Of a stretch of DNA of 51,869 nt, positions 712 to 47,167 are shown piece by piece. Numbering within the stretch: position 1 is the first letter of the stretch; every line of letters begins with the position of its first letter. The notes under the pieces are model-generated. The model was given only the letters and a program-made list of their open reading frames with translations, made no database searches and was not told the DNA's origin. A program made the translations under genes and the position numbers. Source of the stretch: Reclinomonas americana ATCC 50394 (taxonomy: Eukaryota); assembly GCA_048213135.1 (NCBI GenBank), contig PS015160.1, positions 134,250-186,118 on the forward strand, in the 5' to 3' direction.

Positions 712-3651
712 TCACAGCTTGGCTCGCAGATTCGTGGCCCGTCGCGAATCGGTGACCAGCACCACCTTGCCGACGACCTTGCGATCCAGCACGGCGCGGT
801 GCGCCTGCACGACTTGATCGAGAGGGAATGCTTGCGACACGGGAATCGGCTTCATGCCGGCGGCCACCAACTTGAACACTGCCATGCGCGGAGTCAGGGA
901 GTGCGTGGCAGAGGATACCAATGCAAGGACAAGGACGAAACGATCGCCAAACGAGTCGCGCACGACTTTGGGGTCTTTGGCAAAGTGCGCACCCCAGAAG
1001 ACGCCAGTGGCGCTGCGGAGGAGAGATCAGCGAGACAAAGAACGCAGCTTGGTGCAACAGCGGAAAGTATCCAACTGATAGACAGAGAGACAAAGAACGG
1101 GTGGATGCACAGCACACAGAACACAGACATTTTGGAAACCACAATGACCGCGACACGTCCTCCACCAACCAGCCGTCACGGACCCACGCACCTTGAATTC
1201 TTGACAAGCTGCACGAGACAGTCAGCAATCAGATGGGAGAGAGGTGGAAAGGAGAGGGAGGGACGAGGACGGGAAGGCGAGAGAACGTAAGAAATAGAGG
1301 AAGAGAGAAACCATCAGACATAAAGGAGACTGCCTGAGGATACGACGAGAGAGGCTGAAATGTAAACCAAGAGGGTGACGCACAGAGAGAGGGACGAAGG
1401 AAGTGACTGGAGATGCTTGGCGACAGAGACGGAGAACGAAATAAAAGGAAGGAGGATGAGTGAGAACAAGACACAATACAGCATGAGAGCCATGTGCGCA
1501 AGAGAAGAGGGTGGTCTTTCCCTCCCTAATCCCTACTTTCTTTCTCCCTCTCTCTCATGTGCACTGCACTCTTTCATCGGAGTATTGAGGAGCATTTCGA
1601 TCCCCTTGATGTCTCGGGTGACCTTCTCTCTCGCCCACCCGCACTGTGGCTCATGTCCCCTTCCAAGCCCTCTCTAATTCAGCCTCTCCAGTTTCTTTTT
1701 ACTTCCCTCTCTCCCTTTGTCTGTCCTCATCTTGTCAGCCTCTTCGCTGCTCTTCCATTTCTCTCATGAACGAATTGCACGACTTCTTCTTCATCAGGCG
1801 CATTCTCCTCGCCGAATCAGTTGGTGTTCCCCTCGTCCTCGGTCTCTCTCTCTCCCCTCTCCCCTCCCTTTCCTTTCTAACCCCTCCCTTCCCTTTCTAC
1901 CCCTTCCCCAACATCAGGCTCACCAAAATGTTCGCCGGGATCTGCGGAATATCCCCCGACGCGAAACCAACAATCACAATGCGCGCCGACCACTTGATGC
2001 ACCGCAAACACTGCTTGAANNNNNNNNNNNNNNNNNNNNNNNNNNNNNNNNNNNNNNNNNNNNNNNNNNNNNNNNNNNNNNNNNNNNNNNNNNNNNNNNN
2101 NNNNNNNNNNNNNNNNNNNNNNNNNNNNNNNNNNNNNNNNNNNNNNNNNNNNNNNNNNNNNNNNNNNNNNNNNNNNNNNNNNNNNNNNNNNNNNNNNNNN
2201 NNNNNNNNNNNNNNNNNNNNNNNNNNNNNNNNNNNNNNNNNNNNNNNNNNNNNNNNNNNNNNNNNNNNNNNNNNNNNNNNNNNNNNNNNNNNNNNNNNNN
2301 NNNNNNNNNNNNNNNNNNNNNNNNNNNNNNNNNNNNNNNNNNNNNNNNNNNNNNNNNNNNNNNNNNNNNNNNNNNNNNNNNNNNNNNNNNNNNNNNNNNN
2401 NNNNNNNNNNNNNNNNNNNNNNNNNNNNNNNNNNNNNNNNNNNNNNNNNNNNNNNNNNNNNNNNNNNNNNNNNNNNNNNNNNNNNNNNNNNNNNNNNNNN
2501 NNNNNNNNNNNNNNNNNNNNNNNNNNNNNNNNNNNNNNNNNNNNNNNNNNNNNNNNNNNNNNNNNNNNNNNNNNNNNNNNNNNNNNNNNNNNNNNNNNNN
2601 NNNNNNNNNNNNNNNNNNNNNNNNNNNNNNNNNNNNNNNNNNNNNNNNNNNNNNNNNNNNNNNNNNNNNNNNNNNNNNNNNNNNNNNNNNNNNNNNNNNN
2701 NNNNNNNNNNNNNNNNNNNNNNNNNNNNNNNNNNNNNNNNNNNNNNNNNNNNNNNNNNNNNNNNNNNNNNNNNNNNNNNNNNNNNNNNNNNNNNNNNNNN
2801 NNNNNNNNNNNNNNNNNNNNNNNNNNNNNNNNNNNNNNNNNNNNNNNNNNNNNNNNNNNNNNNNNNNNNNNNNNNNNNNNNNAACCTCGCCACCCACAGT
2901 CTGCCATGCGCCCGTGAGGAGCCATTGCGAAGACAGAGCGCCCTCCAATCCACACAGAACCGCACCTCATACACCACATTCACACCCTTGTTGCCGGCCA
3001 GCCGCTGCACCTCGGCCACCAGATCGTCCTTGGCGACATCGATCGCGTGGTCCGCACCCAGCTGTGGCACGAAATATAAAATCAGTCATCTTTGCTACAA
3101 TTAAACCACCCATTGCATCTATACCGTCTCCACGCAGTACTTGCACTTGTCTTCCCCGCGCGCCGTCGCAATCACTGTGCACCCGAGCGCCTTGGCCACC
3201 AGCACCGCCGCCGAGCCCGTGCCACCCGCCGCTCCCGTCACCAACACCACCTCTCCGGCCTTCAAGTGCGCCCGATCGCACAGACCCACGTGCGCAGTGC
3301 CCATCTACAAGCACTTTCGTGAGCGCAAGGGTGATTATGAGGTCGCCACGAAAGCGACAACACAACTCCCACAGGAAACGCGGCGGCCTCCTCAAACGAC
3401 CATCCACTCGGCATGGGCAAGCACGAGGACTCGGGCACGACCACCTGTTCCCCCCCTTTTAGTCAGCCACTGGTGATGGCAAAAGCAACCAAAGACGAAC
3501 CTCCTCAGCGTATCCGCCTTGTCCACGCGCCGCAGTGACCACAGCCATCACACGAGCGCCGACACGCAGCTTGCACTTGTTGCCGACGGCAGCGACGGTA
3601 CCGGCGACCTCGTTGCCGGGAGTGAAGGGCAGTGGAGGGCGTTCTTGGTAC
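712..3651 (-). CDS. NADPH:quinone oxidoreductase (zeta-crystallin/MDR family), multi-exon, 5' end missing, C-terminal PTS1 (AKL)
   Basis: Spliced exons give YQERPPLPFTPGNEVAG, VLVTGAAGGTGSAAV (nucleotide-binding motif), LGADHAID, VGFASGDIPQIPANIL|LVKNS|SATGVFWG and GKVVLV...AKL*. One internal exon region lies in the 2020-2882 gap. Confidence 0.9.
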
Positions 3652-3785
3652 TGTGAGTGGAGGGTGTGAGATGGGAAGATTGAGTGTGGGACGGAGGGAG
3701 TGAATGAGTGAGTGGGAGAAGAGTGAGATATTGCGATGAGTGTTTGGTGCAAGTGCAAAAGTGTGCGCAAGAGTGTGCACCAGTG

Positions 3786-4068: not shown

Positions 4069-4156
<88 letters not shown>

Positions 4157-5198: not shown

Positions 5199-6242
5199 AT
5201 TTTGGTTCCTCGCGGTGCACACCAGCGGCCTCCCACCAAGTACCGTCGTTGTTCCGGTGGCCGATCTCGATGAGGCCTCTGCGCAACGCGGGCAGTTCTT
5301 GTTTGCGCCCTCGGGTCATGACGACACGCAACGAGTTATCGTTGAGTATCCTCGGGGCTCCACCTCATGTCCGCGGCAGTGCTTCTTTTCCTTTTCCCCC
5401 TCTCACTCCCTTCCCCCCACTTCGCAGTCATACATGCGCCTCCTCGCCCCCAATTTACGCATCCGAGGCTTCCCCGATGCCTCCGCCATGGTGGCATTCG
5501 CGTCGAGCACCGCCGACACCATCTGGTGCGGTGTCGTGTTCGACCTGACCACCGAGCAGATCGACAGCGGTCAATTCTTCCCCGATAATGGTGGCACGGG
5601 TCCACCGGTGAGCAAGCTGTCGTACTCGTTGAGGTATCCGGGCAGCATCTTGGGCGCCAACGGCGAGGTACGGCGACTGTTTTTTCCCGCACGAGGAGAA
5701 ACACAACCGCCTCACAGCAATTCACTCGCAGATCATTCAAATGCCCAGCACATACGAGATGATTTACACACCGCCTCCGGGGACGTGGTCCAAAGCAGGC
5801 GTGTACCGCGAGTCTGGCCTGGTTTCCATCATCAGCACCATCGATCGTGCGGTGTCGTTGATTGCTCAAGGTGTGTGGTTCGACAGGAAGAATTGCTCTG
5901 CCATCCACCTTGCTGCTTCTTCTTTTGAGTGCTGCTACTTCTCCATGTTGTGCGTTGCACACTGACTGTGATTCGTGTCAAGCCCCTCCTCGCCTGTGAG
6001 TGTCACTTATCCTGTTCTTTGTTTGTGCTTTCTCTCTCCATCTCAACCAGAACACGTGATGTCGCCCATCTCTCGTCTTCTCTTTTTTCTCTGAGTTTGC
6101 CAATTGTCGACTTCATCTCTCTATATCTCTCCCTCTCAGTCTCTGTCTGTCTCATTCGCTGCAGTTGTCACTCACTTTTCGTTTCTTCTTCTCTCGCCCT
6201 CTCTTCCCTCTTCCGTTCGTGTCGTCTGTCTCTTGTATTTCC

Positions 6243-6282: not shown

Positions 6283-9015
6283 TCCATGTAGTGTCGTTTT
6301 ATTATTCCTTTCTCCCTCGTCCCCGTTGTCTCGTTGGAGTCGTTATCTTCATTTTCCCCTCTTTGTTTCTCTCTGCGTTTCTCTTTCCTCTCGCTTCTCT
6401 CGTCTCTCAGTTCTCTCTCTTTCCGCTCTTCCACAAGTGTCGCCCGTCTCTTGCTTTCCCTTCTCTCTCTGTTTCGTTCGTTGCAGTTGCTGCGTTCACT
6501 TTTCCCTTTCTTTCTCGCTCATCTCTCTCCGTTCGTCTTTTCCTCACCATTCCTTGCACATCGTCTCTTGCCCTCCCCTTCCCCTTTCCCCCACCCTTCC
6601 CCTCCCACCCTCCCTTCCCCTCCCGCCCTCCCTTTCCCTCTTTTCCCCTTCCCCTCTCTCATCCCTTTCCCCACTTGCAGGCCAACCACTCTCGCCCCAC
6701 GCCATCCCCTTCATCTACGAAACCACGCAACGCTTCCCGCTCGACCCGCACAGCTCCGGGCAGACTGCCGCCGAGAACCGCGCTCGTGAGGGCTTTGTGC
6801 GCTACGCCGTTGGCGTGTGGGTCATTGTGGGCTCACTCCTCGCCTACTACCGCCTGCTCACCGACGTGGTGGTGGAGAAGGAGACGCGCGTTCGTGAGAC
6901 AATGCGCATGATGGGACTGCATAGCTTCCTCTACTGGATCACGTGGTTCTTCACCACGCTGCTGATGAATACGGGGGCGGCCGTGCTCATTCCGGTCCTC
7001 TTGCAAGTGTCTGGAGTGTGGCCGGAGAGCGACGTGGCGCTTATCTTCCTCGTCATCCTCTTCTTCAACGCCGCCATGACCACGCTGTGCTTCCTGCTGA
7101 GTGTGTTTGTGGAGCGTCCGCGCTCGGGCGGCCCTGTCGGTCTCCTCGTCATTGTCGGTGTGAGCGTGCTGGGTGTCTTTGTCTCCGCCGACCCCAACAC
7201 GTTCCCCGAGCCCGTGGCCATTCTCCTTTCGCTGCTGCCGCCCGTGGCCCTCACCAATGCGTTTTCGACCATCAACGCCGGCGAGGTCAATTCCGCGCCC
7301 ATCAATTTTAGCAATGCTTCAAGTATGGGATCGGTGCGTTTAAGGGAGAGAGAGAGAGAGTATGTGTTCTCTTTTCCTTTCGTTTGTGCGTGTCTCTCTC
7401 TTTCGCCCATTCCTGTCCCCGCGAAACTCCTCACACTTTGCCGCTTACGCAGCCATCGGTGGCACTGATGATCGGCATGCTCATTCTCGACACCTTCATG
7501 TATGCCGTGTTTGCCTGGTACTTTGCCAATGTTATTCGTGGCGACATGGGCATCCCGCGTCCGTGGTACTTCCCGTTCCAAGAGTGCGCCAAGTTTTGTG
7601 CGGGCCGTGCCAACACCCGCAGTCGGAAGCGCTTCTCGGCAGGCAGTCTCATCAATAGCACTGAGGCCAGCGGCTCCGGCTCTGACATTTCATCGTCGTT
7701 GTATTCGGCGTCGACAATGCCGCCGTCCTTGCGTTGCGTTGGGCTGCCAGCTGTATCTCGCCCGGCATTTCTCGCTTCTCATTTCCTCGCACCCCCTCGC
7801 AGACCACGCTGACATTGAGGATCGCGAAGAGGTCGGCGGCGAGCCGGCGATTTCCATTCGTGGTCTGACCAAGGAGTTTCCGAATGGCACCGTCGCCGTC
7901 GACGATTTGTTCCTCGATGTGTATCCCGACGAAATCACTGTGCTGTTGGGTCATCCGGGCGCCGGCAAGGTTCACGCAGCGTGTTTCTCTCCATGCTGTT
8001 GTAACCACGATGCTCACGGTTGGTTGCAGACGACTGTCGTCAACATTCTCGCCGGCATGCTCACCATCACATCCGGAGACGCCGTTGTGGAGGGTGTTTC
8101 GCTGCAGAGACATCGCAAGTTGGTACGGCGCTACGTTGGCATCTGTCCGCAGGTTAGCGCGCTGTGGGAACAGCTCACCGTGCGCGAGCATCTGGTGGTA
8201 TTCGGTGGCGTCAAGGGCCTGTCGTACACGTCGGCCTTGAACGGTGAGCACATGCAGCACACTGGGGGGGGGGGGGGTGGTGGGGCGGGGTGTCGTCCCT
8301 GTTGCTCATTTCTGACTGCGCACAGAAACCGATCGACTGATTCACGAACTTGGTCTGTCACACAAACGCGACACGGTGGCCTCCAAGCTGACTCTCAGTC
8401 AGAAGCGCAAACTGAGTGTGGTACGCAAAGTGATACAGAGTGTCTGCACGCGTTTGTTGTGTCGCTTTTCTCTACTGTACATGTGCAGGGGGCGAGATTG
8501 TCGCTCTCTCCCCCTCTCTCCGTATTTGTAATTCTCTATTGTCCTCTGCCCTCCCCTCATTTCTCTCTGCGCTTCGATATCGACAGGGAGTGGCGCTGAT
8601 TGGCGACTCGCCGATTGTGATTCTGGATGAGCCCACCGCCGGACTTGGTGCGTCACGATGCCAATACTCTCACATCATGTTATTGCGCTTACTTGTTCAT
8701 GCATGTGCAGACCCGTTCACTCGTCGAGCCTTGTGGGATGTGCTAGAGAGAAACAAGCGCGGTCGTACGATTCTGCTCACCACTCAGCACATGGTAAGTC
8801 ACTCTCTTTTTCGGTGTCTCTCCTCTTTCTTTGTCTCTCTTCTTACTTGCTGTCTCTCCTCTTTCTCGCTGACTCTATTCTCACTTGCCGTCTCTCTTAT
8901 GTCTCAATTCTTACGTTCCATCTCTCCTGCTACTCGCCGTGTCTCCTCGTACTCGCCATCTCTCCTCTTACTTGCCGTTTCTTGTCTTGCTTGACGTCTC
9001 TCCTCGTACTCGCCG

Positions 9016-9072
<57 letters not shown>

Positions 9073-12000
9073 CTCACCGTCTCTCCTCTTTTTCGCCGAC
9101 TCTTGTCTTGCGTGCTCTCTCCTGTCTTACTCGCCTTTCTCACTGTCTCTCCTTTCACTCGCCGTCTCTCCCCGTTCTTGCTGTCTCAATTCTTACGTGC
9201 CATCTCTCCTGCTTCTCGCTGTCTACCCCCTCTCTCTCTCATTTTGTATGTTTCTCTTTCTCGCTGTGCTCCTCCTCTCACTTGCCATCTCTCCTTTTTC
9301 TCGGTGTCTCTCTCTCACTCTCTTTCTCTTTCTCTCTCTCACACACCTCACTTCAACCTGCCATCTTCCCTTCCCCTTTCTAATCTGTAGGACGAAGCCG
9401 ACATGATTGGAGACCACATCGCCATTCTGAGCCAGGGTCAGTTGCGGTGTGCAGGCTCTTCGCAGTTCCTCAAGGTTCGGGACATGCTAGCTTATCGATT
9501 GTGTTGGCGTGTTTCTTTTCCGCTCACTTTCCACTCGACAGACTCGATTTGGCATCGGCTACATGCTGAAGCTGGAATGTGCTCCCGACTGCAACCCGAA
9601 CACAGTCACCGAACTCATTCGGCGGCATGTACCTTCGACGGAACGTGTCTCCTATCCAGAAGAGCACGTGCTGGCGTACAGACTCGCGCGCTCACAGTTG
9701 CGGATCTGTTTTTCATCACATCTCCGGTGTCTGTGCTCTCACATGTCTCCTGATCTCTTCTTTCACAACAAGAGTGTGTTTGCATTTCTTTCCCTTCTGT
9801 TCGTTCTCCTGCTGCTTCACCTCTCACGTCAAGTTTCTTTCCCTCTCTTTGTGTCGGTCTTCTCCTTGTTGTTCATTCTTCTCCATACTGCTGGAATCAC
9901 GTGGAAGAGCTGGCCTTCCCTCGCTCTTCTTGGTTCCAGTCTCCTCCTCTGTGTACTCTCTGTTCTCTCCTCCCGTTTGCTTGTACAACCTGCCCTACTC
10001 TTCTCTTTGACTTTCCTTCTTCTGCTCCCTTCTCTCCCTTTGCTTGCACAACCAGCTCTTCCCTCCTCTTCTCTCTCATTTCCCTTCCCGCTCTCTCCTC
10101 ATGTGACTTCCTCTGCGATTCCCGTCACCTCGAGATTCAGTGTTGTCTATATCTCTTCGCTCATCTTCTCTTCCACCATCTCCCCGGCTGCTCTCCAGGG
10201 GGAATCCTTGCAGTTTTTTTGCTTGCGCATTGATTCCTCCGTGCCACCGCGCAGCGTCCGTTACTCCTTACTCGCTCCTCTCCCTTTGCCTGCCCAGCCT
10301 CTCGCTCATTTTTCTTCTCTTCCACCTTCTCTTTTCTTTGTTTCACTTCTCATTACCTTTCTTCTCCACACCAGCTGCGACGCCTTCAGTGCCATGTTCG
10401 AGGAGCTCGACCGCTCAATGCGCGACCTGCACGTCCTGGGCTACGGCATCTCGATGACCACCCTGGAGGAGGTGTTCCTGCGTCTCGTACAAGAGGGCGA
10501 TGAGTGGGAACAGTCCACAGTTTCGTTGTGTCCTTTCTTCCCAGTTACTTCACCTGACGCTCTTCCTCATGCTTATGCCCACAGGACCTCGGTCGCACTC
10601 TCGACGAGCGACGATTGATGCGCTCCCACAGCCTCACCGGCCACAGTGAGCACGGTGCCAGCGGAGACATTGAGTTGGGAGGCACCTACGGTTCCTTCTC
10701 CACTGGTGTGCGCCTTTGTTTCGTACGATCCACCTCTGCACTCTTTTCCTCACACGGTGGCGCAGAAATGAGCAACCAATCGTTCCTCCGAGTGGACTCG
10801 ACGCGACCACACTTCCTGCTCCAACTCGGCGGCCTAATGGTCAAACGCGGTCGCCTGGCGCTGCGCAACAAGCGATTCCTCTTCACCCAGCTGCTGCTGC
10901 CACTGCTCTTGTTCCTCCTCGGCGTCCTCTTGCTGGTTTGTTCCTTGTTGTTGGTCCGTTAACTGGAACAACCTATTCACGATTCTTCTTTCGGCCAATG
11001 TGCAGTACTTCCTCACCAGTCCACCGGCCCCCGCCCAGCCACCACTGCCACTCACCATCGCCTCGTACGGCCCGTATGCCAATCTCATTGTGCCGTACGC
11101 ACCGGCCACTGCAGCCGCGGAGAATATCCTCCAGTACTTGCCTGGCTTCTCGTTGCTGAAATCCACGCCGTCGTTTGCCTCGGACAGTGATCTCGAACAG
11201 TATCTGCTCCAGAGCGCCATTCTCAACGGCCTCTACCAGAACACCACATTTGGCGGGTACAGCTTCTCGTCGGCGGATCCGCAGGGCCAGATCGCCTTCA
11301 ACACGTGGTTCTCACCGGCGGCCGTCCACTCCATTCCCATCTGGGTGCACTCGATGAACGAGGCCATCTTGCGCTCCACGCCAGGACGGGCGCAGTACGC
11401 TGTCTTGGCCTCGCTGTGGCCGTTCCCGATTTTCGACTTTGCCAATCTGAACACGCACGTGTACGCCGGCATCTGCTTCATCTTGGCGTTCTCCATTGCG
11501 GCCAGCTCCACGGCGGTGCACGTTGTCAGCGAGCGTCGCTCCAAGGCCAAGCATTTGCAGCTGTTGGCGGGTGCCGGAAAAGTTGCGGAGGAGAGGGTGG
11601 TCATATGTTTCTTCTTCTTCGATTTTTCTATTGGAATAGTTGTGAATGGTGTTGTCTCCTGCACTCTTCCCTCGTGTTATTTTGTTCGATCTCTCCGCCG
11701 TTTCAGTTTCCCTTACTTTTTTTCCCTCTCATTCTCGCTGACTTTGCTTTCTTCTTTCCTTCTACTCTTTCATTTCGCCCTTCATTTGGCTTTCTTTTCC
11801 CTTCTTTGCTTTCTCTTTCCTCTTTGGTGTCCTTTCCCCCTAACCCTTTCCTTCCTTTTATGCAGTTCGTATACTGGCTCGCCAACCTCCTCTGGGACGT
11901 CCTGTGGCAACTGCTCTTCGTCTCCTGCGCTGTGGTCCTGCTTCTCGCGATGCGTCCAAACGAATACGCAAACGCCGGTGCCTACCTCGGAGCCGGCAAC

Positions 12001-12943: not shown

Positions 12944-13038
<95 letters not shown>

Positions 13039-30500: not shown

Positions 30501-31126
30501 TCACGCTCAACATGGTTTCGTGACCTCGTCCACCCACCGACAACCTACGGCGCCAATCTTTTCTCACCCCTTGGAGTGTGCGTGTACAATGCAGTCTCCA
30601 AGTTCCATGCCGTCGGATGCCGCTCTGAAAACCAATGTGAAACGCATCGAGGGAGCCCTCGAATCGACGCTGCGTCTGACCGGGCGCACATTCACCTGGA
30701 ATGAGGTCCGCCATAGTTGTCGTTCCATCCGCATCCCGCAGCTCTCTCACGTTGGCTTGCAGGCCGCGGCATCACTGGGCTTCGTGCCCGGCACCGAATC
30801 CCTCGGTTTCGTCGCACAGGAAATCGAAGAGCACTTGCCTCTCCTCGTGGAGAGCCGTAGTCGTCCCAATGGACTGGTGAGAACATGAGACAAGCATATC
30901 GCATACGCTCTTGGCGTGACACTCACAACTCCTCCTTGCGCAGACTGTGAAGCAGGTCGCCTACGCCCAACTGGTAGCTGTGCTGGTGGAGGCCATCAAA
31001 GAGCAGCAAGTGATCATTGATGACTTGCGCAGCCGCCTGCAGGAGCGCGAGCGCGCAGAAGCGTCGATCCTCGATCGACTGACCACAATAGAGCAAGCGC
31101 TACGTGCGCTCCGCGAACCGCTCTGA
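24543..31126 (+). CDS. Type II membrane-anchored repeat fibre protein with a C-terminal intramolecular chaperone/autoprocessing (Peptidase_S74) domain; 13 exons, about 1,900 aa
   Basis: ATG 24543 (MDAATGG|VARASP...). Pro/Ser-rich N-terminus; hydrophobic helix AAAVLVVVHLAIMWALFIIAVYLLA; RR|LL motif; GG-x-I-x-L-x-A-G repeats; 22-aa repeat stalk. Then SDAALKTNVKRIEGALE...FTW...LGFVAQEIEEHLPLLV...VAYAQLVAVLVEAIKEQQ and a coiled coil to TGA at 31124-31126. Confidence 0.85.
26965..30260 (+). repeat. Coding 66-bp tandem array (about 50 units of 22 aa)
   Basis: Unit QSGTVSSSGLISGGSVTTVGS[LMV], with variants AGSIESLTLSSS and AGSIEMVSVSTS. Interrupted by an N gap at 27172-27402. Confidence 0.95.
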
Positions 31127-31170: not shown

Positions 31171-34100
31171 CTAATTTTTATAAAAGCTGTTGTAGTTTAG
31201 TTTCATCAACATGTGCGCCACTGCGCAATCCTCCAGTCAGCCACTGAAAACGATGCAACGAAAACCCACTCAGTCAATAGTGCAACGACGCAACAGTGTG
31301 TGTTCCCAGATTTCCGATGCACCGTAGTCAGCACCGACAGCAGCATGTGATGACCGTGTCGGAAGGCCTTGGAGATGCGCTGATGCTCCAACTCGAGCAG
31401 GTCGAGACCGGAGCTCGTCCCATTCTCTGCGTACCGTACGATCACTGAGAATGAGACCATTGACTTTCATGCAACGCAGCACACAAAGTCCTCACCGGCA
31501 AGCTCGCGAAACTGCAGTTCCCGCTGCCGCACCTCGACAGCGAGATCCAGTATCATGACAATGGTCGTCATGAGGCGAGAGGCCTGCGTGTGGACAACGG
31601 CGGTCAGAGATGCGCGTGGACAAACGACGGCTTGTGCGGTGCAACTCACCTTTTCTTGCAGGAGGCAGCGATGCCCGATTCGCTTCACATACTCGTCGTG
31701 CGCCTGCCGAATCTCATGGAGATTGAGAGTGGAGGCCGTGCTGAGGCGTTCCTGCAGCTCCAGCCACGACGTCTCCAGCACACGTGACATTACGTAGTCG
31801 TGCAGCGTGACGACAAAATGCAGCATCTCTGACCGCAGCAGCTGGAATTTGTGCACAAGCACGTGTCTCGTGGTAAGCGGATGACACGTGCTACCCTCCA
31901 GCACGTACTGCCAGATCATCGAGTGTGAGCGTGGCGAATTGCACAAACACGCAAATACACAAGAGGTGTCACGGACCTTGGCCAGCTTCAGCTGCAACAG
32001 GAAGGTGAACACGGTGCGATAAATCGACAGCGTGTCGTCGCGAATGACCAAATTGAGAGGCCACCCGACCTACACGAGAAGGAGTGAGCATCGTGTGCGA
32101 AGAGTAGAATCTGCTCTGTAAACAATCACCTGAAACTCGATGTGGTACCGCCGCAGCTTCTTCATCACCGTGTCTGGAATGCCGCCAGCTACCGATGGCG
32201 CGGCAACTTCGCGCGCGTCTCCGTCGGGGACGAGTGGAAGAACTCCAAAATGGATACGCTCCACCATTTCACGTGTGGTCGGACAGCCGCGCAACACCTC
32301 ACGCAACGACGAGTCTCCCTCCAGTGCGTCCACCCAATCGGGATCGGCCATGAGCTGCAGTCATGCACGCAAGCACTCGTGAGTGACGGCGCTCGTACAC
32401 TGCACACACTGGGAAAAAACATCCAACGCAACTCGCTCAAAGACCACTTGGCAGAATTCGTGCATGACGTCGCCTTGGCCCATGAAGAACACAGCCTTCA
32501 GCTCTCGCAGGCGCTGCAGGAGGCCGCATTTCTCAAACAGCAGGCGATTCAGGTAGGGTGCCACTGTCTGGCACTGGTGCCGAATGTGCGACAGCAGCGT
32601 ATCACGCAGCAGCACACTGAACGGGATGCGGCTGACCACGGTGGCGTCTGTTGGAAGAAAAGAAAAATCGGTGGGATGATGTCGATAAAAATGCTTCAGC
32701 AAACAACCTCACTCGCACCATCCGCAGAGAGTGCGACGCGTCGCCGAGGTGCCAGTATTGCATCCAGAGCCGGAAGTGCGAACACGGGGGCCGAATCGAG
32801 AAAGTCGGAATCCACAGAGATGGCATCCATGGCCTCTGCATGCACAGAAGTGAGTCACATTGCCGCAGCGCATGTGCGTGTGTGCGCCATTTGCTCGCCG
32901 CACCAGCCGTGAAAAACGTTCTAGACTCGTCCTCCGACTCTGCCGCCAGTGCTGACGGCCGCCAATCGTGATCACCAAAGAGATCGTCGGCCGCCGAGAG
33001 GACATGCCGTCTGCACAACGCTCAGCCATCAGGGGCCCACCAACAGTAATTCTGAATCCATTGACAAACCGTGCTGTTGGAGTCTTGCCAGTCTGCTGCA
33101 GTGGTCCGCGACCGCGCTCTGCGACGCGAACAGAGTGGTCAAACAACGCTGACTTTCACATCAAGGAAGGCGAACAACAGCGGTACGAAACTGACAGCCG
33201 TAAAGAATGTGGGTGCGCGCGCAGACACTCGGTGGCCGCACGTCACCGCAATCGAATCGGCAAACAGCGCGTGCAGTGGCTCACGCCGCAGCAACGTAGA
33301 AATGCTGCCGGACGACAGCAACTTGCTCTCCTGAGAAACGAGTCGCCGCCTCTGTCGTGAGTGTCCGTGTAGGCAGCGGGGCGATAGTGAGAATGGTTTC
33401 GTACCTTCTCAATGTACATGATGAGATTGATGGACTTGCCAGCCAGCAGAATATCTTGCACCAGTTCCCGCAGAAACGACGGCACTAACAGCTCTTCTGC
33501 TGGCACAGAAATCGACAAGTATTTGTTAAGCACATCACCACGCACCACGTTAGTTATAACCTCACCGTTTCGACGACGACTGTCATCGCTGGGGACCGTG
33601 CGTAGACGGAAAGCTGACACGAATCCCTCGTACGACTCCACACGCACGCCAGGTGTCCTGTGTGCTCGTGAATGACGTGTCTTACAGAGGTGGTCTCCCA
33701 GTCGGCATCACACACCGTGCAATCATGAACTCGTCAAAGGCGTCGTTGAGAATGCCCTCATACAGCCACGAATCCAGCATGTCGAGAAGCGGATTCACGG
33801 CATCACAAAAGAGCTCAACGACCAGACCATAAGCATCCGGTGTCAGATTCAGCTGCGTCTGACACACGTAATTGTACCTGATCCACGAAACGCATGAGCA
33901 GTGAGGGAGACGAGGTGCGTAGGCTCCTCAGCAAGCGACCGTCAAGCACGCAACAGCAACGACAGAATGCGGGAGGCACTCGCTGCACGCGACTGGTCCG
34001 GCTCCAGAGGTCTCACAAACGCGAGGACATCGTGCACCAAGTCGAGTGGTCGAACCGCCGCGCGAACCTCGTTCTCCACAGCCAGCACTGTGACTCGACG

Positions 34101-36216: not shown

Positions 36217-37808
36217 ATGAGCGCAGCGCCTTTGGACTGGCAAGTTGTGTTGCACGAACGGGAGCAGACTGTGCTACAGTTGAAGCGGGTGAGGGAATAC
36301 ACAGGCACACAATTTCTCACTCGCTCACTCACTCACTCTCTCTATCTCTCCCCTCACTCACTCTCACTCACTCACACACACACACACGCTCACTCACTCA
36401 CCCACTCACTTACACTCACTCACTCACTCACTCACTCACTCACTCACTCACTCACTCACTCACTCACTCACTCACTCACTCACTCACACTCACTCACACT
36501 CACAGATCATCCCTCGCGCCGAATCATCGACTGACAACGCAGAAGAAGAAGAAGAAGAAGAAGAAGACGAGCAAGAGCGGGAAGAGACATGCGAGCTGGT
36601 GATCATTGGCACCGCACACGTGTCGGCGACCAGTGTGGAGATGGTACAGCGTCGCATTCGTGAGTTGCAGCCGGACGCGGTGGCACTGGAGCTCGACGCG
36701 CAACGAGTGCAGGCTCTGGCCAGCATTGGCAAGAAGCCAGAGAAGAAGGAAGAGGGGGAGGAGACCAAGGAGGGCGGGGATGGTGAGGAGAAAGCAGAAG
36801 AAGAGGAGGAGAAGGAGGAGGCGATGTCGGCGGTTGCTGTTATGCAGCGGGATCCGACAGTGGGCAACTTGCTGCGCGCGATTTTGGAGACGAGGCGGAG
36901 GAGTGGTGCTGCTGGTGGTGGCAAGAAGGGCTCGTCGACGCCGTCGATGCTCATGCTGGTGCTGGCGTTTGTGATGCGGAGAGTCACGAGTGACTTGGAT
37001 GTCGCCATGGTGAGCGCGTGCGTTTGTGTCTCTGTGCGCTGTCTCCTCTCGCTGATGAGTGTCTGGCGTGGCGTGCAGGGCGACGAGCTCAAGGCGGCTC
37101 ACGAGGTGGCGGTCGAGTTGGGCATTCCTGTGCATCTGGTGGACCGGCCTGTCAGTTGCGCTCTTCTCGCGTGGTAGTGAAAGGAAGGAGCGCTGACTGT
37201 GCGGCAGGCGTCACCATCTCGCGCGTGTGGAGCACACTGTCGACATGGGACATGCTTCGTGTGTTGTGGCACTTGACGCCGGCCCTCTTCTCGAAAGTCA
37301 CCGCCGAGGAGATTGAGAGACTGAAGCACGGCGTGACGGCCGAACTGGAAGAGTTTTGCCGTCAGTTCCCGGTCGTGCATCGCGTGTTGCTCGACGAGCG
37401 CGACTGCTACATGGCGTTCCTGTTGCATCGCATGTTCCAGCACAAGTTGCACCATCACGCCACGTGTGCTTCCCCATGACTCCAATTCACGTGCGTTGCG
37501 CAGGGTTAAAGAAAACGCCGCGCCGCCGCCGCGACGTGCCGTAGCCGTCCTTGGTCTCGGGCACATGGCGGGCGTGGTGGAGTGGGTGCGTGCTGTGTGT
37601 CTTACTCCTGCCCCAATGGCCGCTGACCGTCGCTCGCGTGCAGCTGTCGGGCAAGCGAGGCAAGATGCACCGACAGCAGCTGCTCGAGTTGTGCGGTCCC
37701 GTCAAGAAGCCGGCGTTTGGTTGGATCCGCTTCACGTGCCGAATGCTCGTCTTGCTGCTCGTGCTGCGCCTGCTCTTCTGGATGCTGTCGTGGACAGGTG
37801 TCTTTTGA
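36217..37808 (+). CDS. TRABD: TraB-domain protein (TRABD / pheromone shutdown family) with a C-terminal hydrophobic anchor
   Basis: [53 protein letters not shown]-terminal [13 protein letters not shown]. Confidence 0.85.
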
Positions 37809-39533: not shown

Positions 39534-39585
39534 NNNNNNNNNNNNNNNNNNNNAAAGATGACGCCGAGAGAGATATAACCGCAAC

Positions 39586-40266: not shown

Positions 40267-40331
<65 letters not shown>

Positions 40332-41072: not shown

Positions 41073-43159
41073 TCACTTGATGCCAAAGCGGTGCGCCACG
41101 ATCACGTCGTACATTTCCTTGTTAGGAATCACAAGGCCTGCATGAAGGATATTCAGAGGCACAATCAAACCGTCTCTCATCCTCTCTGCACGCAACTCTT
41201 GCCGTCCTCGCTGACGGTGAAACCACCAAGGTACTGGAAGAAGGTGGCCATGTCGCCAAAGTCGCCACCAAGAACGTCCTCGCTCGTCATCCGTGCATTC
41301 GCTTTCGCCGGCACCGGCGAGAGCAGATGCTGGCTCATGGCCGCCAACACGTTCTCGTTGAAACGGGTCATCATGTGCAGGTCTCGCTTGGTAAGAGGAG
41401 CTTGCAGGCCCACTGTCATTCGCAAGTGTACAGCAATATCCGGTCGGTCTGCCGTCGTGCACGCATGCTGCAAAAAATAAATGAACGGATCGTCAGAAGA
41501 CAGCTGCGGGAGCTGCTGGAACACAATGTCGACACACACCGACAAGTACGCTGCAACCTCGCCGCTGCAGTACACCGGGACAGCAGCTGTCGATGACCCC
41601 ACGCCGAAGCGAAACCCAAAGCTCCTCGCCAAAAACTTCTTGTGCGTCTCCACCTCATCGTCCCTGAAGTTTCTTGACGGCTTTGAAAAGATGGCGTTGC
41701 CGTACATGCGAATGTTGTGCATAGTGTATGCGTTGATGTGCGACAACACGAGATCGAGCTCCTCCGTCGTCACCCCGCACATGGTCTGCATCTGCTCGTC
41801 GTTCGTCCAGTCTTGCCACAGGCTGTGGGCGAAATGGTCGCCCAAGTCGTTGACCAACAGCGGAGTCCTCCTGCATGCGCATACCCAATGAATGCGCGGA
41901 CGGCAGGCGACATCGACACACGAGTGCAAGTAGGCAGGAGCGCACCCGGTGAACATCATAAAGCTGACTGCGCCCTCCTGGTAGGCCTTCTGAATCGCGG
42001 CGAAGAAATCGACAACTCCGGACTCGCGCAGCATCTTCGACGCACGTTCCGCAACACCATCGACGCGGCAAGCATGCGACTCGATCGTGGCCTCCCAGAT
42101 CTCCCGCTCCACGCGTCTTGTGCACAAGTCATCCAAGCCGTCGATTAGCACGACCAACTGCACATGCATGTGAACCAAATGATGACTGATGTGCACATGC
42201 GCATCATCAGCCTTACAAAACCTTGCGGTCTACGCGCTTCACGGCGGCGACAATTTCCGCAAACAACGTGAGTGCATCGACATCTTCCTCGGGACACCGC
42301 AGTTGAAGCTCTGGGTAGGTCAAGCAAAAGTCGGAGAGGCCGCCGCAAATGGTCGCCGACGCACCCGCCGTCACGTTTTCGTACAGCGGCTCCGCAAAGT
42401 TGACGTGGGGCTTGTCACGGTCGGGAATGCCGATACGCAACACGTAGTGTTGGCACGGAAGGTTGTTGGGGTGCACGTGAGACATGAAGTCCAGGATTTG
42501 GAGATTCTGAGAGAGCAGTCGAATGAACACATGATACGCAGCAACGCACGCACAACGCACACATGCAGCTCACCGCAAACAAATTCTCGAACGTGCTCGA
42601 TTTCTCTGACGTCTGACGCATCGACGGCGCAAGCAAGCGTTCATGCAGCGCCGACACGGCACTGTTCAACACTTCGTGCGGTTTCGAATCCGTGCATTCC
42701 AGGCGCTTGCGATCGTCGTTGGTGAGAGCACCACGAATGTTGTGGTACGTGGCCAGCGTTTCGACAAGCATGCTCTTGCCAAACCCGCGTGGACGCCAGA
42801 ACAGAACAGGCGCCACGCGCTCTGGCTGGAGCCACGGCAAGAGCAGCGCGGATTTGTCCACGTAGAAGTACCAGTCGCGACTCATGCGGATGCTCTTGAA
42901 GGAGAGTGGACACCAGGCGACCAAGAAGCCTGATGAAAAGCACAGTGGGCGGTTGGCCTGTCTCTCTCACTCGTGCCTCTGCACATCAACAATCGAGCAC
43001 TAACCTCCTTCGACCGATGCACGAGTCGACAAGGCTGCGAGTGCGGGGAGCAAAGAGTGTGAAACGACGACAATGATGGGGAGCGAGTGGGGCGCGCGAC
43101 TCACACTGACCTCGGCCCACTGCAGTGCGCGTCGCCATCGTGGTGCACGCGCGCAACAT
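41073..43159 (-). CDS. AAA-ATPase-like protein (PF09820-type, bacterial-like), intron-containing
   Basis: F..IR...YVDKS, RPRGFGKSML, FENLF, LVVLIDGLD, FMMFTG, MCGVT.EEL, YLGGFT and LVIPNKE. These follow the AAA-ATPase_like motif order. Confidence 0.75.
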
Positions 43160-43543: not shown

Positions 43544-43616
<73 letters not shown>

Positions 43617-43697
43617 GCAGCGACAAAGGCGCCAGACAATCGCTCGCGCTGCGATCATTTGCGCGCGAAGCTTCATTAATTAACTGCCGCACCCGCA

Positions 43698-46600
43698 ATG
43701 TCAGTGGGCCAGGTGTACGACACCGAGTTCGTGGACGAGAATGGGTGCGTCTCTTCTCTCCCACCCCTCTCCCCGCCCTCTCCCTCCCCGCCTTCTCATC
43801 CTCTGTCGCGCCTGTAGCATCACTCGCATCGGTCAGCTCACCGAGATCTGGAACGCGGACGGTACCAGCGAGGAGCACATCAAAGACAAGGCCGACGGGT
43901 TGCTCCTCTGCGTTCGCCTGTACGACGCCAAGGGCAATCATCGTTGCGCATCGATCGCCAAATAGTCAAACGATCACAGATGATGAGATCGCTCACCCCT
44001 TCATCTTCACACACGCAGACTCGACGCGCTTCTCTCACACTGCCGCGCGTGCTGTCGCTCCCGGCACCTCAGCAGTCACCGCACAAGCCGGCTCGTTGGC
44101 TCGATCGCGCATGCCACCTGTGCCGCGATCGTCGTCGCGATCGCTGGCGCGATCGTCCGTGTCCAACTCACCACTCGCGCCTCGCACGTCTTCCTCGTCG
44201 TCGTCGACAGCAACGGCCGCGCGACGCTTGCTGAGTCGCGAGCGATCGCGGTCGCCGTCGTCTGAGGGCGAGCGTGCGCCAGAGTCGAAGCTGGGCAGTG
44301 AGATGCGTCGGTTGACTCGCGGCAAGCGGGTGCCGCAATCGACGCCACCACCGACGCCTCCTCCCTCGGCTCAACAACAACCGGCACAGTCTGGCGCAGC
44401 GCAATCATCACGCGATGCGTCGCCGGAGCCGTCCACGAGAATGGCGCGGGAGATGCGGCGAGTGCGGCAGTCGGGGTCCGCGTCGAGCGGTGGCGGCGGT
44501 ATGCCACCACGACCGCAGCGTATGGCGTCGCGCGTGAGCAGCTCGCAGGATGGCGGCGTGGGCGTGTCGTTTGCGGAGGCGGATGGCGAACCGCTGCCGT
44601 CGACGTTGATGGCGTCGGCCGGGGTGCAGCCGCCCGTCACCATGCAAGATTTGCAAGAGTCGCCCGTCTCGGTGCCGGCGGCGCCGTCGTCGGCGGGTTC
44701 GGCGCGTCGCCTATCGATTGGCTCGATGGAGCACGTGGAGGCGCACGAACTCACCGATCCCGACGCCGCCTCCATGCACGGTTCGCAGGGGGGCCTTCGC
44801 GCCGACGATCTCGGCGATGGCGGCCCGTCGTTCACGAATCGCAACGTGCCACTCGGCGTCTCGGCGAATCACCCGTATGCCACCAACTTGACGGTGCGCA
44901 ATCTGCACCAGCTGCAGGCCACGTTCCGTATGTTCGACACGGATTCGTCGGGTCAAATCGATGCCACGGAGCTGTCGGCTGTCTTCCGTGCGTACGGCAT
45001 GGACATGTCCCCGGAGGCGGTGCGGGCGCACATTCAGGACTTTGATCGCAACGGCGACGGGCAGATTGACTTTGATGAGTTTGTGGCGCTCATGAACGAG
45101 ACTCTGCAACTCAATCCAGAGACTCTGGTGAGTTTTTCTTCTCTCTCGCCTTCTCTCACTCTCTCCTCCGTTAATGGTACTCATGGACCGTGCATGCGTG
45201 TGCACCAGGCGCTGCGTCTGGTCCAATTCTTCCACGAGGTCGACACGGATCACAGCGGCTCGCTCAGCGTCAGTGAAATCCTTTACGCAGTGCGCACTCT
45301 CACCGGGCGGCGCGACTGTGTCACCGAACAGGAGGTTGTCGATTTGGTGAAGGCAATGGATGTCGACGGCTCGAACGAGGTCGATCAGACCGAGTTTGTC
45401 GAGTACCTCATGTGCGCCGAGGATCCACTGTCGGCTCGCATTCTCGATGTTGCGCGATTGCGGAAAGGGGGGAGGAAGTGATGCAGTTGCTGATCGAGTG
45501 CTGTTGCGCAGGCGCTTGTGCCGTCGCCAGTGGAGGCCTTGCGTGCCTTCCTCGGCCTTCCGTCCGGTTACCGCGAGTCGACGCTGGCGTCGCTCGAGTC
45601 GCGCTCCATGAACACGCTGGGTGATCTTTTCCGCCCTCGGTTGGACGAGTGTCGCTTGTTTATCGACACTGCCACTGTGGATTGCACCAGCCGGCAAGTT
45701 ACGTCCATCGCTGCTGGTGCCAGAATCTTGCGTTATTTTGTTGTTGACAAGATGTGCAGCTGGTGGAGAATCCCGGAGAGTCGATGCGCTTCTCCATTCT
45801 GATGGCGCGTGGCGTGCCCAAGCCCGACGTCAACACACGAGTACTCTCCCGCCGCGCACGTCTGTGTCTGTACGACGGCGAGCGTTTCCTCGGCAACTGG
45901 TGGACGCTGAATGCGCAATGGAATCCGGATTTGGAGGACGAGTGGTCGTTCAACACCAAGGTTCCTCATTCTGAAGGAAGAGTCCTCGTTCCTCTCTGTC
46001 TCATCGTATCACCAGGCGGACGACAACAACCTGCTGCTGCGCATTCCGTACGGCACCACGACCAATCGCCTGTACTTGGTCATCGAGCTCACCATTGTTG
46101 CTCAACGACTGAAACCGAATCGCGCCAACCAGGCACCGGCGCCGCCGGCAACAGCGGCAGCAGCGGCGGCAGGGGCTCCACTTGACTTGCCCGACACCTC
46201 GACGGCTGCTGGTGAGAGGCGCTGGAGTATGTACGCTCGCCGTGCCACCACTGGTCTCTCACTGTGCGTGAATGTGCGCAGGAGGTCGGGTGACAGAAAT
46301 GTGCTGCGGGTTCAGCATGCTGGATCTGGGCACGCCAGGCGAACCCGTGCAGCCAAAGCAACACACGTTGCGGTTCCTTGGCGGCACCATTGCGAGCCCC
46401 ATGCCCATTCGACAGCACGAGATCCTGGGTGTGTTTTCTTTTCGAACTTTTCCCTCTCTGCGACCCATAGCACTCATCCTGTGCGGTGTGTCAGCGCGGC
46501 GTACTGGATTCCGGCGATTCGGCAAGTGGGTCAAGGGCCTGTTCTCTGACACTGTGGTGCGGCCCGAAATCGATGTTCAGTTGGAGACGCTCTCGCTGGC

Positions 46601-47167
46601 GAGGAGAACAAAGCACCGGTGTGACTTGTCGTCGTTTTTCCTCAACCGTTCAAGGAATTCTGCTCACTGCCTGCTTGCCAGTACACTTCCGAGTGCTATG
46701 ATTGTACCCTACAAGTACCACCGAGCACTGCATGCGTTCCAGGATCTGTGTGCCGAGGTCGTGCTGCGAAGAGTTTTGTTGTATTGGTTTCTGCCGTGGT
46801 CGCGTGAACGCCATGATCTCATCAAGATTGTTTTCTCGCGTCGCAGGCACTCGACGATCCACCGCCTCCCACGCAAGCCAATGCCGTCCTCACATGGTTC
46901 CCGTATCTGCTCAACTGTGCCGACATCCGACAGCATCTCATTACACTGCTCGACGAACGCTACAATTCCACACCGAGATCGCTAAAGGTGCTCTCGCTGT
47001 CGTCCACAGTCACTGCTGGCTGTTGTCGATTGCGCTCACACAACTAATACAGCAAAAGAAACCGTGGCGGATTTCGTGGTTGTCCAAGGGCGTGCACCAG
47101 CTGTATCCGCTGCTGCGTTCCATCAAGCTGCCGAAGCGCGACTTGTCTCAGCCGACAGTGCAGACGG
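43698..47167 (+). CDS. EF-hand-containing nephrocystin-1 (NPHP1)-like protein; 3' end in the gap
   Basis: Four EF-hand loops (DTDSSGQIDATE, DRNGDGQIDFDE, DTDHSGSLSVSE, DVDGSNEVDQTE). Then VLSRRARLCLYDGERFLGN..T..A.W....W.F, EMCCGF, L.FLGGT and LP...I, matching the NPHP1 C-terminal homology domain (human VLSRHVRLCLFDGNKVLSN...ELSCGW...LNGGT). Confidence 0.75.

What the first reader, a model, noticed from the sequence alone, without database searches (positions are those of the whole stretch)
941..46779. Abundant one-nucleotide-shifted 5' splice sites (H|GTTGCG class) across the window
Seen: most donors are G|GTGCG, G|GTGAG, G|GTACG or G|GTTCG, with G at +5. About 24 frame-supported donors show the same motif displaced by an extra T, putting G at +6. 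Plus strand: 5341 gttgagt, 7733, 9697, 10520 gtttcgt, 11582, 26403, 26662, 30515, 37155, 43943, 45449, 45698 gttacgt, 46773 gttttgt. Minus strand: 941, 3366, 17789, 21236, 21869, 22646, 31294, 32432, 33954, 39585, 41196. 22 of the 24 follow a non-G exonic base. Several are fixed by conserved protein frame (AGK|FVYW, RRHGIS|SKL, DRPVS, VFER|L). Known: atypical GUUAAGU donors read by 1-nt-shifted U1 pairing exist but are rare in mammals (Roca and Krainer). Inference: here they are roughly a quarter of introns, implying a spliceosome that routinely uses two registers, or variant U1/U6 snRNAs.
Basis: partly seen in the sequence, partly recalled or inferred. Interest (0 to 1): 0.85.

Follow-up and report, generated by a model that had tools for sequence, protein, structure and literature searches.

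The report
Splice donors shifted by one base
In this unidentified eukaryote, about a quarter to a third of introns start with GTTGCG-like sequences in which the usual donor signal sits one base further into the intron, a pattern known in humans only as a rarity.

Summary
All 24 strings are at the stated coordinates, and 22 of 24 follow a non-G base.

They behave as real GT-AG donors. At 11582, all 7 homolog alignments cross the junction without a gap. Eight sites are the only frame-keeping GT for their acceptor. 22646 and 21869 fit N-acetyltransferase homologs.

I curated 64 donors:
- 33 are GTNNG, and 32 of these follow G.
- 24 are GTT-N-H-G, and 22 of these follow non-G (Fisher p = 2e-12).
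- 7 are other forms.

T moves from +6 to +7 together with the G.

Weak points:
- 941, and possibly 5341, may be coding sequence rather than intron.
- About eight sites have alternative donors in the same phase.
- 39585 cannot be tested.
- No RNA run, genome or U1 gene was available.

The best reading is one recognition heptamer, G-(G/T)-T-N-N-G-T, with cleavage before its first GT. That amounts to 1-nt-shifted U1 pairing used constitutively. This is inferred, not shown. A bulged-U register or a variant snRNA remains possible. I rate it a new variant of a known kind.

The parts
5341..5347 (+). candidate donor C|GTTGAGT, ABCA-type transporter gene
   Evidence: Phase 0 to the acceptor at 5428. 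The 87-nt segment is in frame and stop-free, so it could also be coding. One alternative donor at 5335.
7733..7739 (+). donor C|GTTGCGT, ABCA gene
   Evidence: The only frame-keeping GT for the acceptor at 7803. Also picked by the motif-blind gene finder. The protein region is unconserved.
9697..9703 (+). donor A|GTTGCGG, ABCA gene
   Evidence: Phase 2 joins to the conserved next exon. Seven frame-keeping alternatives exist. It lies in a loop of variable length in homologs.
10520..10526 (+). donor A|GTTTCGT, ABCA gene
   Evidence: Phase 0 to the acceptor at 10585. Alternatives at 10487 and 10544, the latter A|GTTACTT. Unconserved linker.
11582..11588 (+). donor A|GTTGCGG, ABCA gene; the best-anchored site
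   Evidence: The spliced model aligns without a gap across the junction in 7 of 7 HSPs to six ABCA homologs. Every alternative would add at least 5 residues. Picked by the motif-blind gene finder.
26403..26409 (+). donor T|GTTGCGT, repeat/Peptidase_S74 gene
   Evidence: The only frame-keeping GT. An in-frame stop follows two codons later. 72-nt intron.
26662..26668 (+). candidate donor G|GTTGCGT (-1 is G)
   Evidence: Phase 1. An equally frame-keeping alternative is G|GTGGCGG at 26656.
30515..30521 (+). donor G|GTTTCGT (-1 is G)
   Evidence: The only frame-keeping GT. A stop follows two codons later. The next exon is a Peptidase_S74 domain, E = 2e-9.
37155..37161 (+). donor A|GTTGCGC, TraB-like gene
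   Evidence: The only frame-keeping GT for the acceptor at 37208. 53-nt intron. The TraB family match is weak, E = 0.18.
43943..43949 (+). donor C|GTTGCGC, EF-hand gene
   Evidence: The only frame-keeping GT. A stop lies 19 nt downstream. 76-nt intron.
45449..45455 (+). donor T|GTTGCGC, EF-hand gene
   Evidence: The only frame-keeping GT. The 63-nt intron carries in-frame stops. Picked by the motif-blind gene finder.
45698..45704 (+). candidate donor A|GTTACGT, EF-hand gene
   Evidence: Phase 0. One alternative, T|GTGGATT at 45677.
46773..46779 (+). candidate donor A|GTTTTGT, EF-hand gene
   Evidence: Phase 0. Alternatives at 46758 and 46761.
935..941 (-). doubtful donor C|GTTTCGT, zinc-type dehydrogenase gene
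   Evidence: The only frame-keeping GT, but the 63-nt segment is in frame and stop-free. A PDB alignment (2eih_A) runs through it without a gap. Pfam ADH_zinc_N_2 starts at its 3' edge. Unresolved.
3360..3366 (-). candidate donor A|GTTGTGT, dehydrogenase gene
   Evidence: Phase 0 to the acceptor at 3304. Alternatives at 3372 and 3363. The next exon matches ADH_zinc_N.
17783..17789 (-). candidate donor C|GTTGCGT
   Evidence: Phase 2. Alternatives at 17780 and 17768. Low-complexity protein.
21230..21236 (-). candidate donor T|GTTACGT
   Evidence: Phase 1. One alternative at 21215. Unconserved protein.
21863..21869 (-). donor A|GTTGCGC, N-acetyltransferase gene
   Evidence: 62-nt intron to the last exon. 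The one alternative, 21887, would delete 6 residues of the segment aligned to NAA50.
22640..22646 (-). donor T|GTTGCGT, N-acetyltransferase gene
   Evidence: The upstream exon aligns up to its last residue with NAA60 chain residue 108. The downstream exon aligns from its residues 2-3 with NAA50 chains. The one alternative, 22661, would delete 5 residues of the conserved loop.
31288..31294 (-). donor T|GTTGCGT, gamma-tubulin complex (GCP) gene, last intron
   Evidence: The only frame-keeping GT for the acceptor at 31220. 74-nt intron.
32426..32432 (-). candidate donor A|GTTGCGT, GCP gene
   Evidence: Phase 0. Five alternatives. The upstream exon reaches GCP_C_terminal profile position 29 and GCP5 chain residue 744. 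The downstream exon found no GCP match.
33948..33954 (-). candidate donor T|GTTGCGT, GCP gene
   Evidence: Phase 2. A stop follows three codons later. Three alternatives. The next exon matches GCP_N_terminal.
39579..39585 (-). untestable donor A|GTTGCGG, SHMT gene
   Evidence: The exon ends where homologs continue with conserved sequence that is absent here. The downstream exon is missing behind the N run at 39534-39553.
41190..41196 (-). donor A|GTTGCGT, unnamed gene
   Evidence: Phase 1. A stop follows seven codons later. Joins to the terminal exon (reading). Picked by the motif-blind gene finder. The script check failed because my acceptor coordinate was wrong.
   Evidence: Phase 2, about a 60-nt intron in the TraB-like gene. 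It lacks G at +6.
9441..9447 (+). apparently unused A|GTTGCGG inside a conserved ABCA exon
   Evidence: It lies inside the NBD exon, which aligns gaplessly to homologs.

Best explanation
These are genuine U2-type GT-AG introns. This organism's normal donor is G|GTNNG(T). A second, frequent class is H|GTTNNG(T), mostly H|GTTGCG(T).

Both classes fit one seven-base recognition element, G-(G/T)-T-N-N-G-T. The early 5' splice-site reader is most likely the 5' end of U1 snRNA, whose C9 pairs with the first G. It binds this element in one way. The catalytic spliceosome (U6, U5, Prp8) then cleaves before the first GT inside it.
- In GGT... that GT is the second base, giving a normal donor with -1 G.
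- In GTT... it is the first base. U1 then sits one nucleotide downstream of its usual register, and the exon's last base is free to be anything.

Shown here: the sites are in frame, several are fixed by homology or uniqueness, and the base statistics shift by one position.

For: The donors look real.
- 11582 is gapless in 7 of 7 homolog alignments.
- Eight sites are the only frame-keeping GT for their acceptor.
- 22646 and 21869 are consistent with NAA50/NAA60 alignments.
- A gene finder that knew only GT placed 4 of its 64 donors on GTTGCG, against about 0.5 expected.

There are two exclusive classes among the 64 curated donors. GTNNG follows G in 32 of 33. GTT-N-H-G follows non-G in 22 of 24. 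Fisher p = 1.7e-12.

Only 2 of the 24 donors that follow a non-G lack the GTT-N-H-G form: 33713 T|GTGTGA and 37446 A|GTTGCAC. So every donor but these two has a G in the slot that would pair with U1 C9.

The downstream signal moves as a block. G goes from +5 to +6. T at +7 is 17 of 24 in the shifted class, against 10 of 33 in normal donors (p = 0.003), and matches +6 T in normal donors, 20 of 33.

Pairs to the U1 5' end as printed in PMC4856993, for the shifted class: 4.1 in the canonical register and 6.3 in the shifted one.

Loss of selection at -1 is expected if +1 G already occupies the C9 slot. A bulged-U register would keep C9 facing -1.

The mechanism has precedent in human cells (PMC4856993 and PMC11162779, passages read).
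Against: - No RNA evidence for any junction, and no snRNA gene seen.
- Pair counts do not separate the shifted register (6.3) from the bulged one (6.2).
- The shifted class is strongly GC at its variable pair (16 of 24), while normal donors have GA 10 and GC 8 of 33.
- The -1 A excess expected from pairing to U1 U10 is not significant (11 of 24, p = 0.19).
- Identical motifs lie apparently unused inside conserved exons (9441, 32307, 32295).
- About eight of the 24 have same-phase alternatives, and 941 may be coding.
- My curated canonical donors outside the ABCA gene were chosen by eye.
Confidence: 0.55

Rival explanations
1. Bulged-U register. U1 pairs in its normal register at -1, +1 and +2. 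One of the two U's at +2/+3 bulges out, and pairing resumes at +4 to +7.
For: It gives the same number of pairs as the shifted register (6.2 against 6.3). Single-nucleotide bulges at +2/+3 are an experimentally listed register in humans (68 predicted sites; PMC4856993 Table 3, passage read).
Against: In this register -1 still faces U1 C9. The strong -1 G preference of normal donors (32 of 33) should then persist or even strengthen, but it falls to 2 of 24.
Confidence: 0.15
2. Dedicated variant snRNA. The genome encodes a second U1 (or U6) whose 5' end is changed so that it pairs perfectly with GUUGCGU. For example, the base opposite +2 in the shifted register is changed. There would then be two recognition RNAs rather than one in two registers.
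For: The class is unusually uniform: GTTGCG in 16 of 24, and GC-biased relative to normal donors. This fits a specific complementary RNA better than promiscuous pairing does.
Against: Nothing direct. No snRNA gene lies in the window, and no genome is held. Minor members of the class (GTTTCG, GTTACG, GTTTTG, GTTGTG, GTTGAG) vary at the same two positions that vary in normal donors.
Confidence: 0.15
3. Mis-called junctions. The GTT sites are chance GTs near exon ends. The true junctions, or no junction at all, lie elsewhere.
For: GTTGCG is not enriched in the window as a whole (47 against 38). About eight sites have same-phase alternatives. 941 and 5341 are in-frame, stop-free segments, and a PDB alignment runs through the one at 941. 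No RNA data exist.
Against: 11582 is fixed by 7 of 7 gapless homolog alignments. Eight sites are unique solutions. Nine of 9 fixed non-G donors are GTTGCG, against 0.75% background. A one-base-later cut (HG|TT) would break the reading frame at every anchored site.
Confidence: 0.07

Closest known systems
Shifted-register 5' splice sites of human genes (Roca and Krainer 2009). The paper itself was not held. It is known here from its description in PMC4856993 and PMC11162779 and from recall.
   Same: The intron begins with GU followed by an extra U-like base. The rest of the donor motif lies one position further downstream. Complementarity to the U1 5' end is better when shifted by one nucleotide. 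Cleavage still occurs at the GU.
   Different: In humans this is a rarity. All validated noncanonical registers together make up 1.5% of 201,541 sites (PMC4856993). Here it is 15 of 47 donors in six genes. The motif is GC-rich (GUUGCGU), in line with this organism's GUGCGU-type normal donors. Nothing has been tested experimentally here.
Bulge +2/+3 register of U1:5'ss pairing (Roca et al. 2012; Tan et al. 2016, PMC4856993)
   Same: The same strings can be drawn with one bulged U and give the same number of pairs.
   Different: A bulge register keeps -1 opposite U1 C9. Here the -1 G preference is lost.
Compensation between -1 G and +5 G in ordinary U2-type donors (the topic of PMC8283771, abstract seen; the rest is recalled)
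   Same: Donors lacking -1 G carry a compensating intronic G.
   Different: The compensating G is at +6 behind an extra T, not at +5. The ordinary solution, H|GTNNG, was seen once in 64 donors (33713).
U12-type (minor spliceosome) introns
   Same: A second, sequence-distinct donor class that coexists with the major one.
   Different: The minor-class donor consensus (recalled) is absent. The introns are 53-90 nt in most cases and end in a pyrimidine tract plus CAG, like the normal ones.

Membership tests
U2-type GT-AG spliceosomal introns | Intron starts with GT and ends with AG, and its removal restores the reading frame | tested here: met
   22 of 23 testable sites joined in frame to an AG by script. 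41196 was joined by reading only. 39585 has no downstream exon.
U2-type GT-AG spliceosomal introns | Junction position confirmed on RNA | not testable with these tools
   No RNA run was listed.
Shifted-register 5' splice sites (Roca and Krainer type) | More base pairs to the U1 5' end when shifted one nucleotide downstream than in the canonical register | tested here: met
   Mean 6.3 against 4.1 pairs over the 24 sites, using the U1 5' end printed in PMC4856993. This organism's own U1 is unknown.
Shifted-register 5' splice sites (Roca and Krainer type) | The shifted register is distinguishable from a bulged register | tested here: inconclusive
   Pair counts are 6.3 against 6.2. Only the loss of -1 G (2 of 24 against 32 of 33) favours the shift.
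Shifted-register 5' splice sites (Roca and Krainer type) | Rescue of donor mutations by U1 suppressors designed for the shifted register only | not testable with these tools
   This is a bench experiment.
Bulge +2/+3 register donors | Canonical pairing at -1, +1 and +2 is retained, so -1 G remains favoured | tested here: not met
   -1 G occurs in 2 of 24, which does not differ from exon background (p = 0.09).
U12-type introns | Long, rigid donor consensus of the minor class | tested here: not met
   None of the 24 donor strings listed resembles it. The consensus itself is recalled, not taken from a tool.

The most novel reading that the evidence does not exclude
This lineage's spliceosome needs a G opposite U1 C9 at essentially every intron and accepts either GGU or GUU after it. 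One-nucleotide-shifted U1 binding is therefore not an exception but a constitutive second mode, used by a quarter to a third of all introns. The cut site is fixed later as the first GU of the bound heptamer. That would make this the first genome in which binding register and cleavage position are routinely uncoupled. It would be a natural system for studying how the 5' splice site is handed from U1 to U6.
Probability: 0.45. Interest if true: 0.85.

Novelty: new variant of a known kind. Interest (0 to 1): 0.72.

Why it matters
How the spliceosome fixes the exact cleavage bond after U1 has found the site is still studied mostly through a handful of atypical human donors. A genome in which a large share of introns carries a donor signal displaced by one base would offer thousands of natural test cases. 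It would show that the U1 register and the cleavage site can be uncoupled on a genomic scale.

There is also a practical consequence. Gene finders trained on a single donor matrix would mis-call a quarter to a third of this organism's introns by one or more bases or miss them altogether, which would corrupt its proteome annotation.

Tried and rejected
- RNA evidence: no RNA holder was listed for window 39560-47270, so read laying was never used.
- Genome: none is held for this window, so U1, U5, U6 and splicing proteins could not be sought.
- Rfam at gathering thresholds found nothing in the window.
- Earlier findings of this scan: four look-ups, all empty.
- Protein searches with a mostly intronic SHMT ORF and with the GCP exon returned nothing. 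The organism was not identified. The nearest SHMT relatives are about 76% identical, and the named ones come from red algae and assorted algae.
- Two home-made gene finders were built with a GT-only donor model. The codon-usage version was noisy. The order-3 self-trained version drifted onto wrong strands and over-split genes and was discarded. Only the GTTGCG count from the first version is used.
- A coding-boundary score around every GT discriminated too weakly to use.
- Whole-window word statistics show no enrichment of GTTGCG and no significant lack of G before it.
- The PDB search with the GCP exon downstream of 32432 gave only chance matches. Pfam found nothing for it either.
- Pfam on short exons flanking 37155, 3366, 941 and 21869 gave no hits.
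- Rejected from the frames: a sequencing error turning GGTGCG into GTTGCG, and cleavage one base later (HG|TT). Either would add one base to the exon and break the frame at the anchored junctions.
- Literature: full-text searches for GTTGCG or GUUGCG with splice or intron, for 'shifted register', and for noncanonical base-pairing found no description of such a donor class in any genome. Roca and Krainer 2009 (PMC2719486) is not held. Supplementary files were not consulted.
Full report
**What the window is.** It is 51,869 bases of a eukaryotic draft assembly with seven N runs and about 55% G+C. It is gene-dense, with many short introns. No whole genome is held, no RNA run was listed, and Rfam finds no RNA gene. 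The genes recognised are:
- an ABCA-type transporter on the plus strand, about 5-15.5 kb;
- a zinc-type dehydrogenase on the minus strand, 0.7-3.4 kb;
- an N-acetyltransferase on the minus strand, 21.7-23 kb;
- a repeat protein ending in a Peptidase_S74 domain on the plus strand, up to 31.1 kb;
- a gamma-tubulin complex protein (GCP) on the minus strand, 31.2-34.1 kb;
- a TraB-like gene on the plus strand, about 36.8-37.8 kb (weak Pfam match);
- serine hydroxymethyltransferase (SHMT) on the minus strand from 40,646, cut off by the N run at 39,534-39,553;
- an EF-hand protein on the plus strand, 43.7-47.2 kb.

The organism was not identified. The nearest SHMT relatives are about 76% identical.

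**The strings.** All 24 sites carry GTT at exactly the stated base on the stated strand. Sixteen are GTTGCG, three GTTTCG and two GTTACG, with one each of GTTGAG, GTTTTG and GTTGTG. Twenty-two follow a non-G base. As a word, GTTGCG is not enriched in the window: 47 occurrences on both strands against 38 expected from a second-order Markov model. The base before it shows no significant bias window-wide. Any significance must therefore come from where the sites lie in genes.

**Are they donors? Homology.** I read the genes in three frames. For the ABCA gene I assembled 13 exons (7453-12490) into a model with no stop codon. I aligned it locally with six full-length homologs found with one exon as the query.
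- At 11582 (A|GTTGCGG), 7 of 7 alignments cross the junction without a gap. Every other frame-keeping GT would add at least five residues.
- In the same alignments the ordinary junctions at 8244, 8421, 8648 and 8794, and the GTT-starting but G-preceded donors at 7970 (G|GTTCAC) and 9475 (G|GTTCGG), have no gap within ten residues of the junction.
- 9697 lies in a loop of variable length. 7733 and 10520 lie in unconserved linkers.
- In the acetyltransferase gene, the exon before 22646 aligns to its last residue with NAA60 chain residue 108. The exon after it aligns from its second or third residue with NAA50 chains. The only alternative donor would delete five residues of that conserved loop.
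- The alternative to 21869 would delete six residues of the aligned segment.

**Are they donors? Frame logic.** For each site a script listed every GT from 45 nt upstream to 120 nt downstream that keeps both flanking frames open with the chosen acceptor.
- The claimed GT is the only solution at 7733, 26403, 30515, 37155, 43943, 45449, 941 and 31294.
- It is one of two at 5341, 26662, 45698, 21236, 21869 and 22646.
- It is one of three or more at 9697, 10520, 11582, 46773, 3366, 17789, 32432 and 33954.
- For 41196 my acceptor coordinate was wrong and the check failed. The reading (phase 1, a stop seven codons later, then the terminal exon) stands alone.
- 39585 cannot be tested, because the rest of SHMT is absent from the window.
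- Two sites are doubtful as introns at all. The 63-nt segment after 941 and the 87-nt segment after 5341 are both in frame and stop-free. For 941, an alignment to a solved alcohol dehydrogenase runs through the segment without a gap. The Pfam domain match begins only at its 3' edge and gains just 2 bits.

**A motif-blind check.** A crude gene finder used codon usage, any GT as donor and any AG as acceptor. It placed 4 of its 64 donors on GTTGCG (7733, 11582, 45449, 41196), where about 0.5 would be expected from the word's share of all GT. A more elaborate self-trained version drifted and was discarded.

**The pattern across donors.** I curated 64 donors: the 24 claimed ones and 40 others met in the same genes. 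Their coordinates were checked. Sorted by intron sequence alone, 33 are GTNNG, 24 are GTT-N-(not G)-G and 7 are neither.
- The exon's last base is G in 32 of 33 of the first class and in 2 of 24 of the second (Fisher p = 1.7e-12). It is G in 6 of the 7 others.
- Only two donors that follow a non-G lack the shifted form: 33713 T|GTGTGA and 37446 A|GTTGCAC.
- Restricted to donors I had graded as fixed by homology or frame, the table reads 9/0 against 1/9 (p = 1e-4). Those grades were my own reading, and later showed that 9697 is not unique.
- T is at +7 in 17 of 24 shifted donors, against 10 of 33 normal ones (p = 0.003). That equals T at +6 in normal donors, 20 of 33. So at least two conserved positions move together by one base.
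- In the six genes read end to end, the class makes up 15 of 47 donors: ABCA 4 of 17, EF-hand 4 of 11, GCP 3 of 9, acetyltransferase 2 of 3, TraB-like 1 of 4, SHMT 1 of 3. At least one GCP junction between 33.3 and 32.65 kb was left unresolved.
- The overall figure of 24 of 64 is inflated, because every claimed site was included while several genes were not fully read.

**Results that cut the other way.**
- The shifted class is not a simple copy of the normal motif. Its variable pair is GC in 16 of 24, whereas normal donors have GA 10 and GC 8 of 33.
- The -1 base of the shifted class does not differ from exon background (A 11 of 24, p = 0.19; G 2 of 24, p = 0.09). G is unselected there rather than avoided.
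- In 7,237 nt of curated exon there are 10 internal H|GTT-N-H-G strings. Three of them are GTTGCG (9441, 32307, 32295). There are also 22 internal G|GTNNG strings. Both motifs are therefore about equally poor predictors on their own and need context.

**Mechanism.** I counted pairs to the U1 5' end as printed in PMC4856993. The 24 sites form on average 4.1 pairs in the canonical register, 6.3 when shifted one base downstream and 6.2 with one bulged U. Counting pairs therefore cannot choose between shift and bulge. The -1 base can. In a bulged register it still faces U1 C9 and should stay G, as in 32 of 33 normal donors. In the shifted register C9 is taken by +1 G and -1 is released from selection, which is what is seen.

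The simplest rule covering 62 of the 64 donors is one bound element, G-(G/T)-T-N-N-G-T for most and at least its first G for the rest, with cleavage before the first GT inside it. It was not tested here. A dedicated variant U1 or U6 would explain the uniform GTTGCG better and cannot be excluded without the genome.

Cleavage one base later (HG|TT), or a base-calling error turning GGTGCG into GTTGCG, would add a base to each exon and break the frame at the anchored junctions. Both are rejected.

**Comparison and novelty.** Shifted and bulged U1 registers are established in human cells but rare. All validated noncanonical registers together account for 1.5% of 201,541 donors, and the +2/+3 bulge for 68 predicted sites (PMC4856993). 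Four full-text searches found no report of a GTTGCG/GUUGCG donor class or of a genome with frequent shifted-register donors. The original 2009 paper was not held, and supplements were not seen. I therefore rate this a new variant of a known kind: a known mechanism, if it is the mechanism, promoted from curiosity to a major class.

Noticed in passing
window 9441-9447 (+), 32301-32307 (-), 32289-32295 (-), 46367-46373 (+), 42049-42055 (-): Sense-strand H|GTTGCG strings identical to the used donors lie inside exons and appear unused. 9441 lies in an exon that aligns gaplessly to homologs. They may be cryptic or alternative donors. 9441 is out of phase with the real donor at 9475.
   Followed up: partly
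window 7970 (+), 45961 (+), 12631 (+), 46988 (+), 32129 (-), 3124 (-): Six donors preceded by G have G at neither +5 nor +6 (G|GTTCAC, G|GTTCCT, G|GTGCTA, G|GTGCTC, G|GTGATT, G|GTATAG). 7970 is fixed by homology. The -1 G alone seems to suffice in some contexts.
   Followed up: partly
window 39534-39553 and minus strand below 39586: The SHMT gene stops after its third exon at a 20-N gap. None of the conserved downstream motifs occurs anywhere in the window. The scaffold join here probably hides missing or misplaced sequence.
   Followed up: partly
window 22012-22646 (-): The 634-nt intron of the acetyltransferase gene is purine-rich (GA-rich) on the sense strand. The other introns read here are pyrimidine-rich.
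   Followed up: no
window about 27400-30250 (+): A long run of near-identical coding repeats precedes a C-terminal Peptidase_S74 (endosialidase chaperone) domain at 30595-30876. This is a tail-fibre-like architecture in a eukaryotic gene with introns.
   Followed up: no
window 12945-13030 (+), 8990-9070 (+), 40270-40330 (-), 47190-47270 (+): Long GT, CT and CTT microsatellites sit inside introns. Several N gaps adjoin such repeats.
   Followed up: no
window 37446-37452 (+): A probable donor A|GTTGCAC in the TraB-like gene resembles the shifted class but has A at +6.
   Followed up: partly
window 31220-31294 (-): The last GCP intron ends in a purine-rich stretch before GCGCAG instead of a pyrimidine tract. 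A better-looking acceptor about 20 nt upstream, TTTTCAG, would give a different C-terminus.
   Followed up: partly
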